DNA from: an uncultured virus (IMG/VR IMGVR_UViG_3300005617_000382)
Lineage: Duplodnaviria > Heunggongvirae > Uroviricota > Caudoviricetes
DNA: 20,000 bases
Virus record (IMG/VR): IMGVR_UViG_3300005617_000382
Strand: one strand, 5' to 3'
The notes under the pieces were generated by a model. That model had not been told where the DNA came from and ran no database searches. It was given only the letters and a program-made list of their open reading frames with translations. The translations under genes and the position numbers were made by a program. Positions 4,096 through 11,861 of the stretch are shown here, piece after piece (within the stretch, counting starts at the first letter, position 1; each line of letters starts with the position of its first letter).

Positions 4096-4427
4096 TCATC
4101 ACCCTCGCCACCATCCGCGGACCGGTCAGCGTCGACGCCACAGTCACCGGTGAGTGGGCCAGCCATCGCGATCCATTCGACACTGGCATCGCCGGTCCGC
4201 ACGAGCGCTGGACGGTGACCCACGTCCCGACCGGTCTTCGTATTCCGCGTCTTCTGACCAGCAAGAGAGCTCGCGACCTGGCTGAGCGACTGTCGAAGGA
4301 GGTGCCGACGCTGGGTGTCCCGGCAACGATAGTACCGACCAGGCAGGTCAGGGTCGACGACCTCGGACCGGGATACGCAGCAGTCCTCGCGCGTCTGACC
4401 GGAATCGTCGACGAGGTGTGCACATGA
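4092..4427 (+). CDS. Hypothetical phage protein
   Basis: ATGA overlap, GGAG RBS, WTVTHVPTG motif. Confidence 0.6.
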   Translation: MIITLATIRGPVSVDATVTGEWASHRDPFDTGIAGPHERWTVTHVPTGLRIPRLLTSKRARDLAERLSKEVPTLGVPATIVPTRQVRVDDLGPGYAAVLARLTGIVDEVCT

Positions 4428-4942
4428 CACTCGACGACTACCACATCAAGCACGCGCTTAAGGTCGCATCGCGTTCGCCGTGCCGAAGTAAGCGCGGCGT
4501 GGTGCTATTCAACGCTACGACTGGAGCGCACCGCGGCGAGGGCCATAACGGACCGCCGTCGCCGTTGACCTGCCCGGGTCGAGAGCGCTGCGCCGGTACG
4601 TGCGGTCAGCGGTCTGTGCACGCAGAGATGCGGGCGCTGCGCGATGCCGAAGGCTATCGCCGATATCACGAAACCGGACCATACGAGCTACTTCACGTCG
4701 AACTCGCGCCAGATGGCGGTGTCGTCGCCTGCAGCGGTCCGAGCTGCTGGCAGTGCGCGAGGGAGATTCTTGACGTCGGCTTCATCGATGGTGTGTGGCT
4801 GTACGAGCGAGCCGGATGTCCACACTGCGAGGCCGGTGAAGTAGCCCAGGACAAGCAATGTCCGCGCGGATCCGGCGGCTGGCGCCGCTACACCGCCGAA
4901 GAGTTCTACCGCGTCACGCTCGTCAACTGCGGAATCACATGA
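4424..4942 (+). CDS. Zinc-dependent cytidine/dCMP deaminase-family protein
   Basis: SPCRSKRGVV, GHNGPP, HAEMRAL and PSCWQC match the HxE...PCxxC deaminase signature. Confidence 0.8.
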   Translation: MTLDDYHIKHALKVASRSPCRSKRGVVLFNATTGAHRGEGHNGPPSPLTCPGRERCAGTCGQRSVHAEMRALRDAEGYRRYHETGPYELLHVELAPDGGVVACSGPSCWQCAREILDVGFIDGVWLYERAGCPHCEAGEVAQDKQCPRGSGGWRRYTAEEFYRVTLVNCGIT

Positions 4943-5724: not shown

Positions 5725-5987
5725 CCACCACCGCCGCGCTGCTCGAGGCAATCCGCGCTGTTGTGCGCGAGGAGCTTGAACGCGATCGGCACTCCCGGGT
5801 ATCCGAGGAACCATGCGAACCACCCCACGTATCAACGGTCCCTACAAGCACGGTCGAAAGTGGCGCGTCCAGTTCACTACAGGAAGCGGCAGAGATCGGT
5901 CGACGACATACAAGGTCTTTGATACGCGCGCAGCGGCGGAGGCTTGCGTCGACGGCGCTCGGGACGAAGCGCAAGGCGTCACGGTGA
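5721..5987 (+). CDS. Possible excisionase-like or small regulatory protein overlapping the integrase 5' end
   Basis: AGGAG RBS, GTGA coupling; LEAIRAVVREELER resembles N-termini of phage HTH/Xis proteins; HTH itself not clear. Confidence 0.35.
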   Translation: MTTTAALLEAIRAVVREELERDRHSRVSEEPCEPPHVSTVPTSTVESGASSSLQEAAEIGRRHTRSLIRAQRRRLASTALGTKRKASR

Positions 5988-6856
5988 AGATGGCCGTTGA
6001 CCAGTGGCTGACCGAGAAGCGTGCCGCTGGCTTGGCCGACGTCACGATCGCGGGCTACCGGGCACGACTGACGGCGCTGCTGGGGCCAGCGCTGAGCCGA
6101 CCGCTGCGCTACGTGCGGACCCGCGGCGCAGAGCTCTACATCGGCGTGCTCAACGGCCGGCGCCCCGACACGCATCAGCACGCGCTCGTGATCGGCGGCA
6201 TGTGGGGCCGCTGGTGCGTGAAGCGCAAGCTGCTCAAGGAGAACCCGTTCGCCGACGTCGACCCGGTCGGCCGCAAGACGCTCGGCGCCGACAAATCGCG
6301 GCTCACTGTGGACGAGTCGCGCATTCTCTACGGCTGGTGTCTCGAGCAGCCGGACAACGCTGATGCGATCCTGACGCTGGGCTACCTGCTGCTCGGCTCG
6401 CGCGCATCGGAGCTGACGAAACGCGACGTCCGTGACCTGGACGACAGCGGCCGGATGCTGTGGATTCGCGCAACCAAGACTGCCGCGGGTCGCCGTCGCC
6501 TGATCGTGCCACCCGAGCTGGTGCCACTGCTACTCGGCCTGTGCGGCGATCGCAGGCCTGACGCACCGATCTTCGCGCACCCTGATGGGTCCCGCTGGAC
6601 ACGACAGCTCGCGCGCCGCAAGGTGATGTCGTGCTGCAAGGCCGCTGGCGTTCCGGTGCTGCCACCCCAGGCGCTGCGCAGGACGCAGGCCACGCTCGCG
6701 ACCGAAGCAGGCGAGACGGCTCTCGCGGTGGCGTACCACCTCGGCCAGGCCGTCAAAGCGGCGCCTGCTGTTACTACGAGGTCGTACATTGGACGGGACG
6801 CGGCGCAAGAAGCGACGGCGCATCGGGCGAGGAAGTCGATTCAGGGGCTGAACTGA
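5813..6856 (+). CDS. int: Tyrosine recombinase / phage integrase
   Basis: Arm-binding-like N-terminus (KWRVQF...FDTRAAAEA); GSRASEL (R), TKT (K), QALRR (HxxR position), HLGQ, TTRSY (catalytic Y); GAGGA RBS. Confidence 0.9.
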   Translation: MRTTPRINGPYKHGRKWRVQFTTGSGRDRSTTYKVFDTRAAAEACVDGARDEAQGVTVKMAVDQWLTEKRAAGLADVTIAGYRARLTALLGPALSRPLRYVRTRGAELYIGVLNGRRPDTHQHALVIGGMWGRWCVKRKLLKENPFADVDPVGRKTLGADKSRLTVDESRILYGWCLEQPDNADAILTLGYLLLGSRASELTKRDVRDLDDSGRMLWIRATKTAAGRRRLIVPPELVPLLLGLCGDRRPDAPIFAHPDGSRWTRQLARRKVMSCCKAAGVPVLPPQALRRTQATLATEAGETALAVAYHLGQAVKAAPAVTTRSYIGRDAAQEATAHRARKSIQGLN

Positions 6857-7005: not shown

Positions 7006-7017
7006 TTGGAAACCACC

Positions 7018-7368
7018 ATGAACCACGGACGACGTCAGCGACACCCGGACAAGTACACGGCAGCCATCTACTTCGCGCAGTGCCAGGACGAGAACGGCTA
7101 CATCAAGATCGGCTACACGAAGGACGTGAACGCGCGGATCGCCAGCTTCCAGTGCGGCTGCCCGTATCCGATCGTGCTGATCGCGTGGTTCACCAGCGAC
7201 GACGCCAAGAACGTCGAGGCCACGCTTCTGGAGCGCTTCAAGCACCTACGCGTGCGCTGCGAGTGGTTCCGGCCTGAGCTAGAGCTCTTGGATGCGATCG
7301 CTCAGATCGGCAGCGTGAAGAGTGCATCGTCCAGAGTAGCGGCAGCGCTCGGTTACGCTGGTGGGTGA
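7018..7368 (+). CDS. T5orf172 / GIY-YIG family nuclease
   Basis: IYFAQ...YIKIGYT...R...Q...E...R..EWF pattern typical of T5orf172/MUG113. Confidence 0.85.
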   Translation: MNHGRRQRHPDKYTAAIYFAQCQDENGYIKIGYTKDVNARIASFQCGCPYPIVLIAWFTSDDAKNVEATLLERFKHLRVRCEWFRPELELLDAIAQIGSVKSASSRVAAALGYAGG

Positions 7369-9359: not shown

Positions 9360-10390
9360 CGCCCGAGATGGCCGCAGCCTACATGCGCAACCTGGACAAG
9401 TTCCGCGAGGCGATGTGCAAGGAGTTCCCGGAGCCACTGATCGTCATCGGCGTCGACTACGGCTCCGAGCCTGCCACCACGGTAGTCCACCACAAATGCG
9501 CCCGGTGCGAGCAGGTGCTGCCGGTCATGCGCTGCGGCCTGTCGGAAGCGGCGGCCCAGGCGAACCTTGACGCGGCGCTCGCCGCGCACCAGGAGCGCTG
9601 CTTCCGCCCCGGTGATCACGTCAGATGGGAATGGAAGAAACACGGTCGCTGGGCCGAAGGCGACTTCGTCGGCGCCCTGAAGTGCGACGGCTGGACTCGC
9701 TACACGATGATCGTTGCTGGAGCGTCGGTCGGAAACTGGAGCGCTCTGTCGCCCAGTCTGCCGATCGGCAAGGAGCACCAGTTCGGCGTACGCGTCGACG
9801 GTACCGGACAGGACATCCGCCGCATCCCGCGCCCGGAGCAGAAGGTCGAGTTCGGGACGTATCAGGAAGGCTTCGACAGACAGGCGGAGCAGCCGACCCT
9901 CTCCGCTCGCCTCGGCCACCTCAAGCACGGACCCGGCGGCTCGGGGCCCTCCGGTCCGTGCGATGCGGACTGCAGGAAGTGCGCGGCCGAGAGGAAACCG
10001 CAGGAATTCCATGCAGTCGATTGCCCGTACTACGACAGCGTCGACGCGGAATGTATCTGCAACGGTCCACCGCCCACGATCGAAACGCCGTGGATCACGC
10101 CCGGTGGCCCGAGGCCCGACCCACTCGACACGAAATACGACGGCCAGACCCTCCGCGACCTCCTCGCCGCGGACCTCGCCATGAGCCGCGAGACGCTGAT
10201 CTCCGACATGCCGCTGTGGTTCCGCATCCAGGACGGCTTGACGCGGACGCAGCGGCAAGCGGTGAGCGCGTACAGGAGCGCGGAGTTGAGGGCCAAGATC
10301 GCCGCCTCGCGTGAAGCCGAGCGATGCGCGGTCAGGGTGGATGACGATCTGTGGCTGGCGAACTGTAAGGATGTCGATGAAGATCTCTGA
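9335..10390 (+). CDS. Mosaic hypothetical protein with several Cys/His clusters
   Basis: AAAGGA RBS; CARC...H..RC, CDADCRKC and HAVDC...CIC motifs. Confidence 0.65.
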   Translation: MHGHDDEVTPEMAAAYMRNLDKFREAMCKEFPEPLIVIGVDYGSEPATTVVHHKCARCEQVLPVMRCGLSEAAAQANLDAALAAHQERCFRPGDHVRWEWKKHGRWAEGDFVGALKCDGWTRYTMIVAGASVGNWSALSPSLPIGKEHQFGVRVDGTGQDIRRIPRPEQKVEFGTYQEGFDRQAEQPTLSARLGHLKHGPGGSGPSGPCDADCRKCAAERKPQEFHAVDCPYYDSVDAECICNGPPPTIETPWITPGGPRPDPLDTKYDGQTLRDLLAADLAMSRETLISDMPLWFRIQDGLTRTQRQAVSAYRSAELRAKIAASREAERCAVRVDDDLWLANCKDVDEDL

Positions 10391-10784
10391 ACTGAAGGTC
10401 GGCGACCGCCTCGAGAATTACCGAACCGGGACAACAATCGTCGTCGAGAAAATCGAACCGTGGTCGGGTGGCAATGGCGACATCAGCTTTCGCGAAGGCC
10501 TAACGTGGGCACGCCAGCGCTCAATGACGTTCAGGCAATTCGAGCGCCTGAAGTTCATCCGGCGACTCGGCGATCGACGCATACGCCTGACCGAACAGCA
10601 GTGGCGCGACGTGTTCAAGATCCGCTGCCGCTCGAAGCGCGGCGAGGCCATCTCGGCAAGTGACCTGGCCATGTGCGAAGCGGCGCTCAAGGATGACCCC
10701 AAGCGCTACAGCAACTCCGAAGTCGACGTGTTCAACGCGACCGTGCCGTTCGGATCGAACGTCCGACGAGTCAGAACACCTTGA
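10371..10784 (+). CDS. Hypothetical protein
   Basis: MSMKISELKVGD start (10371, or 10377 with TAAGGA RBS), a beta-barrel-like N-terminus. Confidence 0.6.
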   Translation: MSMKISELKVGDRLENYRTGTTIVVEKIEPWSGGNGDISFREGLTWARQRSMTFRQFERLKFIRRLGDRRIRLTEQQWRDVFKIRCRSKRGEAISASDLAMCEAALKDDPKRYSNSEVDVFNATVPFGSNVRRVRTP

Positions 10785-10929
10785 TCACCTTGCTCGCGAC
10801 CGTGAACAGCGTCACAAGCAGCCCGCACCAGAACAGAGCGCGGCCGACTTCGACGACCTTGGCGTTGGCCGCGAGCACGTAGATGAGCAGACCGACGATT
10901 GCGGCCAGGAGCGGGATGATGGCGATCAT
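10771..10929 (-). CDS. Small two-TM membrane protein (52 aa), not in the ORF track
   Basis: Manual translation MIAIIPLLAAIVGLLIYVLAANAKVVEVGRALFWCGLLVTLFTVASKVIKVF; strongly GC3-biased codons; candidate promoter just upstream. Confidence 0.7.
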   Translation of the reverse strand: MIAIIPLLAAIVGLLIYVLAANAKVVEVGRALFWCGLLVTLFTVASKVIKVF

Positions 10930-10935
10930 GGAGAC

Positions 10936-10964
10936 AGCGTACCCTGTCAGACGCTGTTAGCTAA
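10936..10964 (-). promoter_or_regulatory. Putative sigma70-type promoter for a leaderless transcript of the 52-aa gene
   Basis: Minus strand reads TTAGCT-17 bp-TACGCT, with 6 nt to the ATG and no SD. Confidence 0.4.
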
Positions 10965-10989
10965 CGTACCGCGTGTTTCCGCCAACCAG

Positions 10990-11016
10990 TCGACATAGAA
11001 GCAGTCGTGCTATAAC
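10990..11016 (+). promoter_or_regulatory. Putative sigma70-type promoter for the RNA cassette
   Basis: Extended -10 TGcTATAAC (11008-11016) with TCGACA upstream (15-bp spacer). Predicted +1 at ~11022 coincides with the start of the long stem. Confidence 0.55.
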
Positions 11017-11021
11017 TTCCT

Positions 11022-11140
11022 GGCACGTCCAATCGCAGCGAGCCCACACGCAATGTTGCCCCATGGTGGGGCGACGGTCTTGTAAACCGTAGGGGCTGGT
11101 TCAATTCCAGCACTAAGCGCTCGCCGCACTCGGACGTGCA
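11022..11140 (+). ncRNA. Long-stem RNA with tRNA-Thr(UGU)-like head (tRNA-like core 11050-11119)
   Basis: D arm CCCC-ATGGT-GGGG; anticodon arm ACGGT-CTTGTAA-ACCGT; T arm GCTGG-TTCAATT-CCAGC. Acceptor GCAATGT/ACTAAGC has 3 mismatches. Enclosed by GCAGCGAGC/GCTCGCCGC and GCACGTCC/GGACGTGC helices. Confidence 0.7.
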
Positions 11141-11143
11141 ACA

Positions 11144-11212
11144 TGCAGGGAGAGGCAGACTCAACCGCGGCTCATAACCCCGGTTCTGCCGGTGCGACTC
11201 CGGCCCCTGCTA
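11144..11212 (+). tRNA. Atypical tRNA-Met(CAT), initiator-like
   Basis: Acceptor TGCAGGG/CCCTGCT plus A73; anticodon loop CTCATAA; T arm GCCGG-TGCGACT-CCGGC; shrunken D arm GAG-GCAGA-CTC; no encoded CCA. Confidence 0.7.
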
Positions 11213-11215
11213 CGA

Positions 11216-11548
11216 ATGGGAACCACCTATTACCTCGCGCGCCCGGACAGCGGCACGCTGTTCGACCTCGGGAAGTCGTACGAAGCGGCTCGCACGTGGC
11301 GCGGCGAGGTTGACCGGTTCACCACCGTCGTCGTGGACACCTCAACCGGAGCGCTCGCCAAGGTGCTGCGAACCGGCATGGGGTTCGAGGCTGAGACGCC
11401 CTACCTGTGTGAGGTTATCCGCCGGATTCGCCGGTTCGCAGACGGTCGCGAGGTGCATCTGCTAGACGAGCATGATCTCGAGGACGATGCGTTCCGCGGT
11501 GAGGGCGGCGAGCTGCGTGTAACCGGATCGCGATTCGATGACGGCTGA
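11216..11548 (+). CDS. Hypothetical phage protein (MGTTYYLARPD...)
   Basis: ATG directly after the tRNA-like gene; globular sequence; ends at the strand convergence point. Confidence 0.6.
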   Translation: MGTTYYLARPDSGTLFDLGKSYEAARTWRGEVDRFTTVVVDTSTGALAKVLRTGMGFEAETPYLCEVIRRIRRFADGREVHLLDEHDLEDDAFRGEGGELRVTGSRFDDG

Positions 11549-11549
11549 C

Positions 11550-11861
11550 CTATTGCCTCCCCCAGTGAACCCCGCAGCTGCATCCCTGCTCGACCGCAGC
11601 GTGCGCGTGGATCCTAACCAGCATGAATCCCAGCTCGACAAGCGCGGCCACGTGCTCCGGTAGGTCCGCCGCGCCGAACACGTCGATCGACTGCTCGTAC
11701 GGGTCGAAGTTCCACCCGGGGCCCCACTCATCGCTGAAAATCCGGTTGAGCTCGGCCTCGAGCTGGTGTTCGACGGTCAGCGCATGGGCCTCGGACGCGA
11801 ATAGCACCATGGCCAACGGGACGACGATCTCCGGTCTTGACTCGACGGTCTGCATGCTCAC
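11550..11861 (-). CDS. Hypothetical protein with C-terminal HxH...CxC motif
   Basis: GGAGG upstream; GTG 11861 or ATG 11855; coupled to the upstream gene. Confidence 0.6.
   Translation of the reverse strand: MSMQTVESRPEIVVPLAMVLFASEAHALTVEHQLEAELNRIFSDEWGPGWNFDPYEQSIDVFGAADLPEHVAALVELGFMLVRIHAHAAVEQGCSCGVHWGRQ

What the first reader, a model, noticed from the sequence alone, without database searches (positions are those of the whole stretch)
11022..11140. tRNA-Thr(UGU)-like head on a long terminal stem: candidate new tRNA-mimic ncRNA
Seen: the D, anticodon (loop CUUGUAA) and T arms are well formed, but the acceptor has three central mismatches (A·A, A·A, U·U) and no CCA. The ends continue into two more helices (8 of 9 bp, and 8 bp) that start at the predicted +1 of a TGnTATAAC promoter. 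Known: G1-C72 and C2-G71, which are kept here, are ThrRS identity elements. Inference: the mature RNA may be a non-chargeable ~118-nt mimic, such as a decoy for anticodon nucleases or a ligand of ThrRS or the ribosome. The terminal stem loosely resembles the Ro60-binding stem of Y RNAs, but the arm order is canonical rather than YrlA-permuted and no Ro gene is visible in this window.
Basis: partly seen in the sequence, partly recalled or inferred. Interest (0 to 1): 0.85.

Follow-up and report, generated by a model that had tools for sequence, protein, structure and literature searches.

The report
Stalked, mismatched tRNA-Thr gene in phage
An uncultivated soil phage carries a threonine-tRNA-shaped gene whose end stem is broken by three mismatches and clamped by a long outer helix, next to an unusual start-tRNA gene; the shape is real and rare, but whether it is an odd tRNA precursor or a tRNA mimic cannot yet be told.

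Summary
ARAGORN and Rfam both call a tRNA-Thr(UGU) at 11050-11119. Its D, anticodon and T arms are perfect. Its acceptor stem has A.A, A.A and U.U at pairs 3-5, and no CCA is encoded. Leader and trailer form two further helices (8 bp, and 8 of 9 bp).

Both oddities are rare in a control set of phage tRNAs from unrelated viral contigs:
- Only 2 of 211 have two or more unpaired acceptor positions.
- Only 2 of 218 have a comparable leader-trailer duplex.

Four bases downstream lies an initiator-type tRNA-Met(CAU), a member of a family found on at least 120 viral contigs. A phage gene starts 3 nt after it. All of this forms one accessory cassette in a temperate, high-GC phage.

One complete relative (63 kb) keeps the 282-nt intergenic cassette with a single change (C72 to U). 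Flanking genes have dS 0.09-0.16. More distant relatives differ at this place.

No Y RNA model match and no Ro gene were found. No host tRNA copy was found, which argues against attP.

My best reading (0.4) is a tRNA precursor on a processing or folding stalk. A retained, uncharged mimic is a live rival (0.3). Covariation and RNA ends could not be tested.

The parts
10990..11018 (+). Promoter-like stretch: TCGACA (10990-10995), TG (11008-11009), TATAAC (11011-11016) or TAACTT (11013-11018, 17-nt spacer)
   Evidence: Read. It is not listed by the consensus scan (0 promoter-like sites in 10700-11700). It is identical in the relative G001. The start site is inferred, not shown.
11023..11030 (+). 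Outer helix H1, 5' strand (GCACGTCC); pairs with 11132-11139
   Evidence: pair probabilities 0.99-1.0
11035..11043 (+). Helix H2, 5' strand (GCAGCGAGC); pairs with 11119-11127, with A11037.C11125 unpaired
   Evidence: pair probabilities 0.98-1.0 for 8 of 9 positions
11044..11049 (+). Six-base 5' bulge (CCACAC) between H2 and the acceptor. It would leave positions -1 to -6 single-stranded.
11050..11119 (+). tRNA-Thr(UGU)-shaped core, 70 nt. Acceptor 4 of 7 pairs (A.A, A.A, U.U at 3-5/68-70). D, anticodon and T stems are perfect. T loop UUCAAUU. G73 is shared with H2. No CCA.
11119..11127 (+). Helix H2, 3' strand (GCTCGCCGC). It starts directly at the discriminator.
11132..11139 (+). Outer helix H1, 3' strand (GGACGTGC)
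11144..11212 (+). Initiator-type tRNA-Met(CAU) with U1.U72, A73, a 3-bp D stem, a C.C mismatch in the anticodon stem, T loop UGCGACU and no CCA
   Evidence: ARAGORN only. It is not matched by RF00005 at E <= 10. It is a member of a family on >= 120 IMG/VR contigs.
11216..11548 (+). ORF P0001 (110 aa, no family). The ATG lies 3 nt after the Met gene's discriminator, with no Shine-Dalgarno sequence.
   Evidence: (homologues all start MGT...)
10771..10929 (-). Divergent small ORF P0002 (52 aa, hydrophobic), GC3 0.90. It is probably leaderless: TACGCT lies 6 nt before the ATG on the - strand.
   Evidence: promoter read (inference)

Best explanation
The element is the first gene of a small accessory (moron-like) tRNA operon of a temperate, high-GC soil phage. 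The proposed order is: promoter, tRNA-Thr(UGU)-shaped RNA, initiator-type tRNA-Met(CAU), then the mRNA of P0001.

I think the 17-bp leader-trailer stalk (H1 + H2, split by a 4x4 internal loop) is most likely a folding and processing clamp. It would hold the two ends of a weak acceptor stem together in the precursor. It would also offer a double-stranded site of about two helical turns, of the kind RNase III cuts in rRNA and phage precursors. The six unpaired bases 5' of G1 would leave the RNase P site accessible. RNase P cleavage at the Met gene (11144) would free the Thr module.

The product would be a phage tRNA-Thr with a loosened acceptor (a 3x3 loop). It would receive CCA after transcription and be charged poorly or normally.

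Shown: the cloverleaf, the mismatches, the stalk, how rare both are, and their conservation in one relative.
Inferred: the promoter, co-transcription, every cleavage, and charging.
For: The core is a good tRNA. It scores 41.4 bits against a gathering score of 29. The D, anticodon and T stems are perfect, and the anticodon and T loops are canonical.

It sits 4 nt upstream of an initiator-type tRNA gene that belongs to a family on >= 120 viral contigs. In that family, 64 of 90 members encode CCA and 70 of 90 have a 1.72 mismatch, so they look like genuine tRNA genes. Thr and initiator-like Met genes lie within a few hundred bases of each other in other phage loci (L065, L089, L127).

The stalk is predicted with probability about 1. 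The acceptor alone is not predicted (probability 0.03). This fits a clamp that compensates for a weak stem.

The 5' bulge leaves the RNase P site single-stranded.

The intergenic 282 nt differs at 1 position from G001. Flanking genes have dS 0.158, 0.142 and 0.094. The single change, C72 to U, keeps the pair as G.U.

Earlier notes of this scan describe leader-trailer helices around viral and bacterial tRNA genes. These are leads only.
Against: Three consecutive mismatches in an acceptor stem are almost unknown among working phage tRNAs. In the control set, 1 of 211 has three unpaired acceptor positions, 1 has two, and 209 have none or one. All 9 other phage tRNA-Thr genes examined have 7 of 7 acceptor pairs.

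After processing, only two G-C pairs would close the acceptor end.

The discriminator is paired into H2 and no CCA is encoded. The 3' end is therefore buried, which should hinder RNase Z and exonucleases.

The relative weakens G1-C72, which belongs to the acceptor-stem part of threonine identity. The review PMC9976931 (passages) states that identity lies in acceptor pairs plus anticodon. The specific pairs are recalled.

ACA is 8.5% of Thr codons (77 of 907) in G001. That is no more than other A-ending codons, so there is no special demand for this tRNA.

The cloverleaf is 8.3 kcal/mol above the MFE; 13 of 211 control tRNAs have a gap that large.

No phage RNase III gene was found. No RNA data exist.
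Confidence: 0.4

Rival explanations
1. This is a retained tRNA mimic. RNase P cutting at the downstream Met gene releases a ~120-nt RNA whose two ends stay locked in the stalk. It is never charged. Its intact anticodon arm and elbow, or its A.A/A.A/U.U loop, bind a protein. Candidates are a host anticodon nuclease or another tRNA-targeting defence (decoy), ThrRS, or a phage protein.
For: Two rare features coincide: a broken acceptor (2 of 211 controls with >= 2 unpaired positions) and a strong stalk (2 of 218 controls with z <= -3). All other stems are perfect, which looks like design rather than decay.

The stalk begins at the predicted transcript start and ends 4 nt before the next gene. The RNA would therefore have no free ends.

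G73 is paired and no CCA is encoded.

The only change in the relative preserves pairing but alters a ThrRS-side pair.

Phage tRNAs as counter-defence are established (PMC10264068 and PMC11555353; abstracts and passages).
Against: No RNA ends, no partner protein and no covariation are available.

A decoy for an anticodon nuclease has no need for a broken acceptor.

There is no match to any Rfam mimic family at E <= 10.

The neighbour is a plausible working tRNA, and the six-base 5' bulge looks made for RNase P.

Only two near-identical copies are known in IMG/VR.
Confidence: 0.3
2. This is a tRNA relic. A once-normal phage tRNA-Thr lost its acceptor pairing and no longer works. The region looks conserved only because the whole intergenic cassette was exchanged recently between the two phages, or because overlapping promoters and operators and the downstream Met gene are under selection. 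The inverted repeat would serve something else, such as 5'-end protection of the Met/P0001 transcript.
For: The two genomes are mosaics. Divergence per 100 nt ranges from 0 to 18 within one aligned block, so low divergence can reflect recent exchange.

The cassette is not conserved in more distant relatives. L005 has no tRNA upstream of its P0001 homologue. Contigs of runs X12 and X16 run on unlike the window exactly at 10931 and 11216 (table 7).

There is no codon-usage demand for ACA.
Against: A relic should show damage elsewhere too. Here 14 of 14 pairs in the D, anticodon and T stems, and the loop consensus, are intact.

Three adjacent changes confined to one stem, plus a 17-bp stalk exactly framing the gene, are not what drift predicts.

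The recombination end points would have to fall within a few bases of both flanking start codons.
Confidence: 0.2
3. This is a DNA-level element. It could be an attP core carrying a copy of a host tRNA-Thr gene, whose 5' acceptor strand is phage-specific. Alternatively, it could be an invertible or mobile segment bounded by the inverted repeat.
For: The phage has a tyrosine integrase (5813-6856). An attP that copies all but the first bases of a tRNA gene would give exactly this picture: a perfect tRNA except for the 5' acceptor strand.
Against: The 20-mer spanning the T loop to the 3' acceptor strand occurs in 0 of 185,579 species genomes.

The integrase lies 4.2 kb away, with several genes between.

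The tRNA is atypical for bacteria (70 nt, short D loop).

There is no target-site duplication beside the repeat. The stem words are not repeated elsewhere in the window.
Confidence: 0.05

Closest known systems
Phage-encoded tRNA genes (Rfam RF00005), here tRNA-Thr(UGU)
   Same: It has a cloverleaf with canonical D, anticodon and T arms and loops. It passes the Rfam threshold. It lies in a tRNA cluster with its own promoter-like site.
   Different: The acceptor stem has only 4 of 7 pairs, with a central 3x3 loop. The discriminator is paired into an outer helix. A 17-bp leader-trailer stalk frames the gene. In the control set, 209 of 211 tRNAs have at most one unpaired acceptor position, and 216 of 218 lack such a stalk.
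Leader-trailer processing stalks of stable-RNA precursors cut by RNase III
   Same: The 5' and 3' flanks pair into about two helical turns, interrupted by an internal loop, and enclose a stable RNA.
   Different: No cleavage is shown. No phage RNase III gene was found. The stalk is separated from the acceptor by a 6-nt bulge on one strand only. Covariation could not be tested.
Bacterial Y RNA / YrlA with Ro60 (Rsr)
   Same: A tRNA-like head sits on a long terminal stem.
   Different: There is no Rfam Y_RNA/YrlA match at E <= 10. The arm order is canonical and a full anticodon arm is present. No TROVE domain was found in the window or in the relative's genome.
Viral tRNA-like structures (TYMV type, RF00233) and the thrS operator mimic of tRNA-Thr (PMC9976931, passages)
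   Same: These are tRNA-shaped RNAs in viral or regulatory contexts. A tRNA-Thr anticodon arm is known to be used as a ThrRS ligand.
   Different: RF00233 gives a weak match only to the neighbouring Met gene (17.7 bits, E 0.2), not to the Thr element. The Thr element has all four arms, unlike the thrS operator.

Membership tests
tRNA (RF00005) / working elongator tRNA-Thr | Cloverleaf that passes the family's curated score | tested here: met
   41.4 bits against a gathering score of 29. ARAGORN calls Thr(tgt).
tRNA (RF00005) / working elongator tRNA-Thr | Seven-pair acceptor stem (at most an isolated mismatch) | tested here: not met
   4 of 7 pairs, with A.A, A.A and U.U at 3-5/68-70. In the controls, 209 of 211 phage tRNAs have 0-1 unpaired positions. 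All 9 other phage tRNA-Thr genes have 7 of 7.
tRNA (RF00005) / working elongator tRNA-Thr | Free 3' end: unpaired discriminator followed by CCA (encoded or added) | tested here: inconclusive
   CCA is not encoded. G73 is predicted to pair with C11043 (probability 0.98). CCA could be added after processing.
tRNA (RF00005) / working elongator tRNA-Thr | Threonine identity: first acceptor pairs plus anticodon G35, U36 | tested here: inconclusive
   G1-C72, C2-G71 and UGU are present in the window. The relative has G1.U72. The review states that acceptor pairs plus anticodon carry identity; the exact pairs are recalled.
tRNA (RF00005) / working elongator tRNA-Thr | Aminoacylation and use in decoding | not testable with these tools
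   This needs RNA and enzyme assays.
Y RNA / YrlA | Match to the Rfam covariance models | tested here: not met
   No Y_RNA or YrlA match at E <= 10 in 10900-11300.
Y RNA / YrlA | Ro60/Rsr (TROVE) gene in the same genome | tested here: not met
   No TROVE match in 22 window ORFs, nor in 87 of the 89 ORFs called in the complete relative (the 2 ORFs that crossed locus borders were not scanned). The host genome is unknown.
tmRNA | tRNA-like domain plus tag reading frame | tested here: not met
   ARAGORN with the tmRNA search found 0 tmRNA genes.
Leader-trailer RNase III processing stalk | Leader and trailer pair into about 20 bp enclosing the stable RNA | tested here: met
   8 + 8 pairs around a 4x4 loop. 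Duplex energy -33.6 kcal/mol, z -5.0, reached by 0 of 2000 shuffles. Pair probabilities are about 1.
Leader-trailer RNase III processing stalk | Pairing kept by compensatory change in relatives | tested here: inconclusive
   G001 is identical in both strands. One divergent copy in run X11 shows a changed 3' strand, but its 5' strand is not visible.
Leader-trailer RNase III processing stalk | Cleavage by RNase III | not testable with these tools
   No RNA data are available.
attP core copying a host tRNA gene | Identity with the 3' part of a host tRNA gene | tested here: not met
   The 20-mer from the T loop to the 3' acceptor strand has 0 matches in genome contigs. The true host may be unsampled.
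attP core copying a host tRNA gene | Position next to the integrase gene | tested here: not met
   The integrase is at 5813-6856 and the element at 11050.
Bacterial-type initiator tRNA (for the neighbouring Met gene) | Non-Watson-Crick 1.72, A73, CAU anticodon, G-C pairs at the foot of the anticodon stem | tested here: met
   U1.U72, A73, CAU, G30-C40 and G31-C39 are present, with C29.C41 mismatched. In the family, the 1.72 position is a mismatch in 70 of 90 and A-U or U-A in 15 of 90; A73 occurs in 79 of 90.

The most novel reading that the evidence does not exclude
The mature RNA is the whole ~120-nt stalked molecule. It would be a phage-made, non-chargeable mimic of tRNA-Thr(UGU) with closed ends, and its A.A/A.A/U.U acceptor loop would be a designed feature. 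It would act as a decoy or inhibitor of a host tRNA-directed defence or of ThrRS. It is made together with a structurally altered initiator tRNA, so that the cassette as a whole protects phage translation.
Probability: 0.3. Interest if true: 0.8.

Novelty: new variant of a known kind. Interest (0 to 1): 0.45.

Why it matters
Phage tRNAs are now seen as tools against host defences that attack tRNAs. A tRNA-shaped RNA that cannot be charged and is kept on a closed stalk would be a new kind of phage counter-measure.

If it is instead a precursor, it shows that a phage of GC-rich soil bacteria uses an rRNA-style leader-trailer stalk to mature a tRNA with a very weak acceptor stem. Such a design is not described for bacterial or phage tRNAs in the papers I could search.

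Either way, the cassette points to a much larger and apparently undescribed family of phage initiator-type tRNAs with an altered elbow.

Tried and rejected
**Searches for homologues of the Thr element**
- Exact 36-mer in IMG/VR: only G001.
- Loops-only pattern with free stems: only G001.
- Tandem Thr-T-loop plus Met pattern: G001 and one unrelated low-GC tRNA array, L131.
- Trailer patterns: 0 matches. The second pattern missed even G001, because of its C72 to U change.
- blastn of the cassette against 120 fetched loci: only the Met part matches.
- INPHARED phages: no match to 801 nt of DNA or to a 673-aa neighbouring protein.
- Genome contigs: no P0001 relative and no 20-mer.
- Protein search with the antisense ORF 10961-11164, hoping for mis-called ORFs in relatives: nothing.
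- The record of L005 is not held for a whole-record search.
- No own genome is held.

**Sequencing runs**
- No RNA holder is listed.
- In the four runs laid (X10, X11, X12, X16), no contig covered 10949-11137. This is no evidence of absence.

**Ideas rejected**
- MITE or mobile element bounded by the repeat: no target duplication, and the stem words are not repeated.
- Nested wreck of older tRNA genes, a lead: no further tRNA-like match in the flanks at E <= 10.
- Retron-like ncRNA: the downstream ORF has no reverse transcriptase or any other family.
- Terminator: none found.
- Coding on either strand: the pattern of zero substitutions is not that of a gene.

**Other**
- P0001 has no Pfam match even at E <= 10 in any of 5 family members. 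Atlas neighbours are unnamed viral or Actinomycetota clusters.
- Literature searches found no paper on phage tRNAs with multi-mismatch acceptors, on leader-trailer stalks of phage tRNAs, or on the G55 initiator family. These searches cover the open-access library only.

Full report
**What the window is**

The window is 61-69% G+C. It carries phage recombination and lysogeny genes:
- a Sak4-like AAA_24 protein at 301-1581;
- a RusA-like protein at 2163-2720;
- a deaminase-like protein at 4418-4942;
- a tyrosine integrase at 5813-6856;
- a T5orf172/MUG113 protein at 7006-7368.

No whole genome is held for it. No cultured phage in INPHARED resembles it, by DNA or by a 673-aa protein.

Its one close relative is a complete 63,206-bp IMG/VR genome with terminal repeats (G001). 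It encodes a terminase, an SU10-type adaptor, a DnaB-like helicase, a sigma-70 region 4 protein and a Cpn10. The two genomes are mosaics of shared blocks at 73-98% identity. Parts of the region occur in soil and rhizosphere DNA metagenomes.

**The observation**

ARAGORN and Rfam both call a tRNA-Thr(UGU) at 11050-11119. The D stem, the anticodon stem (5 of 5) and the T stem (5 of 5) are perfect. The anticodon loop is CUUGUAA and the T loop is UUCAAUU.

The acceptor has only G1-C72, C2-G71, G6-C67 and U7-A66. Positions 3-5/68-70 are A.A, A.A and U.U. No CCA follows.

- H1: 11023-11030 with 11132-11139 (8 bp).
- H2: 11035-11043 with 11119-11127 (8 of 9 bp).
- A 4x4 internal loop separates the two helices.
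- Six unpaired bases (CCACAC) lie on the 5' side only, between H2 and G1.

The discriminator G73 is the first base of H2.

In the thermodynamic ensemble, H1 and H2 have probability 0.98-1.0. The acceptor pairs have 0.03 or less.

**Is it more than chance?**

The leader-trailer duplex is -33.6 kcal/mol, against -17.6 +/- 3.2 for shuffled flanks. That is z = -5.0, and 0 of 2000 shuffles reach it. In the window itself, 7 of 537 segment pairs of the same geometry do as well.

I used the tRNAs that ARAGORN finds in 120 unrelated IMG/VR loci as a control set:
- Of 218 tRNAs, 2 have a leader-trailer z of -3 or lower (-4.19 and -4.04; the window's Thr scores -3.7 on the same 28-nt measure). None has a duplex of -25 kcal/mol or better; the window's is -26.6.
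- Of 211 distinct tRNAs, 154 have no unpaired acceptor position, 55 have one, 1 has two and 1 has three.
- All 9 other tRNA-Thr genes have 7 of 7 acceptor pairs.
- The cloverleaf lies 8.3 kcal/mol above the MFE; 13 of 211 controls have a gap that large or larger.

Both oddities are therefore real and rare, and they coincide in one gene.

Four bases after H1, ARAGORN finds a second gene, tRNA-Met(CAU), at 11144-11212. RF00005 does not match it even at E <= 10. It has U1.U72, A73, a 3-bp D stem and the T loop UGCGACU.

I found 96 distinct sequences, of which 90 have a clear acceptor. Among those 90:
- the 1.72 position is a mismatch in 70, A-U or U-A in 15, and G-C in 5;
- A73 occurs in 79;
- CCA is encoded in 64.

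This is an initiator-type tRNA family, and the window's gene is an ordinary member of it.

Three bases after its discriminator begins P0001 (110 aa, no family). Its five known family members all start MGT.... The window has no Shine-Dalgarno sequence there, whereas the distant relative L005 has one.

On the other side, a small hydrophobic ORF (P0002) diverges on the minus strand.

The Thr element is thus the first gene of a compact unit: promoter-like site, Thr, Met, P0001. The unit sits between the end of the late (structural) genes and the early genes.

**Conservation**

Against G001, the 282 nt from 10934 to 11215 differ at one position, 11118. That change turns C72 to U, making G1-C72 a G.U pair. 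The flanking genes have dS 0.158 (P0002), 0.142 (P0001) and 0.094.

At the synonymous rate, about 40 changes would be expected. This is either strong constraint on the whole intergenic unit or a recent exchange of exactly this piece. The mosaic pattern of the two genomes does not let me exclude the second possibility.

More distant relatives do not keep the cassette:
- L005 (P0001 61% identical) has an upstream gene and no tRNA.
- Contigs of runs X12 and X16 run on unlike the window exactly at 10931 and at 11216 (table 7).

One 261-nt contig of run X11 lies on 11141-11178 with 3 differences. Its 30 visible letters before 11141 resemble the Thr trailer. They share the last acceptor bases plus the start of H2, and an 8-nt word (GCACTCGG) running from the end of H2 across the inter-helix loop into H1. 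They differ in the H2 and H1 3' strands and in the 3' acceptor strand. A diverged copy therefore exists, but its 5' half is not visible, so covariation could not be tested.

**What it is not**

- Y RNA/YrlA: no Rfam match at E <= 10. No TROVE domain in 22 window ORFs or in 87 of the 89 ORFs called in G001. The arm order is canonical.
- tmRNA: none found.
- attP: the 20-mer from the T loop into the 3' acceptor strand is absent from 185,579 species genomes. The integrase is 4.2 kb away.
- Mobile element or nested tRNA wreck: no target duplication, no repeated stem words, and no further tRNA-like match in the flanks.
- Supporting enzymes: no RNase III, RtcB, aminoacyl-tRNA synthetase or CCA-adding enzyme domain was found in G001.

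**How it most likely works**

I put 0.4 on a precursor reading. The stalk holds together a tRNA whose own acceptor cannot form alone. It also offers a two-turn double-stranded site with an internal loop, like the leader-trailer stalks and phage sites that RNase III cuts (recalled knowledge; one search gives leads from this scan). The 5' bulge keeps the RNase P site single-stranded. RNase P at the Met gene would separate the modules, and the Met gene's 3' processing would leave P0001 with an almost leaderless mRNA. All of these steps are inferred.

Against this reading stand:
- the three mismatches;
- the buried 3' end;
- the weakened G1-C72 pair in the relative;
- the lack of any special ACA demand (77 of 907 Thr codons in G001).

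I put 0.2 on a relic inside a recently exchanged or otherwise constrained cassette, and 0.05 on a DNA-level element.

**Comparison and novelty**

The element works like a tRNA gene on an rRNA-style processing stalk. It fails one defining feature of a working tRNA, the 7-bp acceptor, so I file it as a new variant of a known kind rather than as an ordinary member.

My literature searches (open-access library only) found nothing on such a design in phages.

Interest is moderate. The anatomy is unusual and conserved, but there are only two near-identical copies, no expression data and no covariation.

Noticed in passing
window 11144-11212; loci L010-L129: The Met gene belongs to a large family of phage initiator-type tRNA-Met(CAU) genes. 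They share the T loop UGCGACU (G where U55 normally stands). Their D loops lack GG, or the D arm is reduced to a short hairpin with a GAG loop. The family occurs on >= 120 IMG/VR contigs with G+C 32-69%. Forms with a reduced D arm score just under the Rfam threshold for the tymovirus tRNA-like element (L043: 36.6 bits against 40). Three cultured-phage tRNA-Met genes found by similarity all have the normal T loop. I found no paper describing the family.
   Followed up: partly
window 11212-11218: P0001's ATG lies 3 nt after the Met gene's discriminator, with no Shine-Dalgarno sequence. The distant homologue in L005 has GAGGAA upstream. 3' processing of the tRNA could therefore create a nearly leaderless mRNA.
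   Followed up: no
window 10934-10965: The conserved divergent control region holds a perfect 10-bp palindrome, GTTAGCTAAC (10956-10965), and a 7-bp inverted repeat (10934-10940/10951-10957) that overlaps the likely -10 of the leaderless P0002 gene. These are candidate operator sites, and they are identical in G001.
   Followed up: no
window 11119-11131 and 11501-11513: The Thr trailer (H2 3' strand plus loop) is 12 of 13 complementary to a stretch inside the 3' part of P0001 (I4). This could be chance in GC-rich DNA.
   Followed up: no
L100 about 120-270: In another high-GC viral contig, the stretch just upstream of its Met-family gene contains a T-arm-like hairpin and an acceptor-like pairing, but ARAGORN calls no tRNA there. 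It may be another non-canonical tRNA-like gene (seen by eye).
   Followed up: no
window 10338-10773 against G001: The 435 nt left of P0002 have no counterpart of equal length in G001 (232 nt there). The tRNA cassette therefore sits at a mosaic junction.
   Followed up: no
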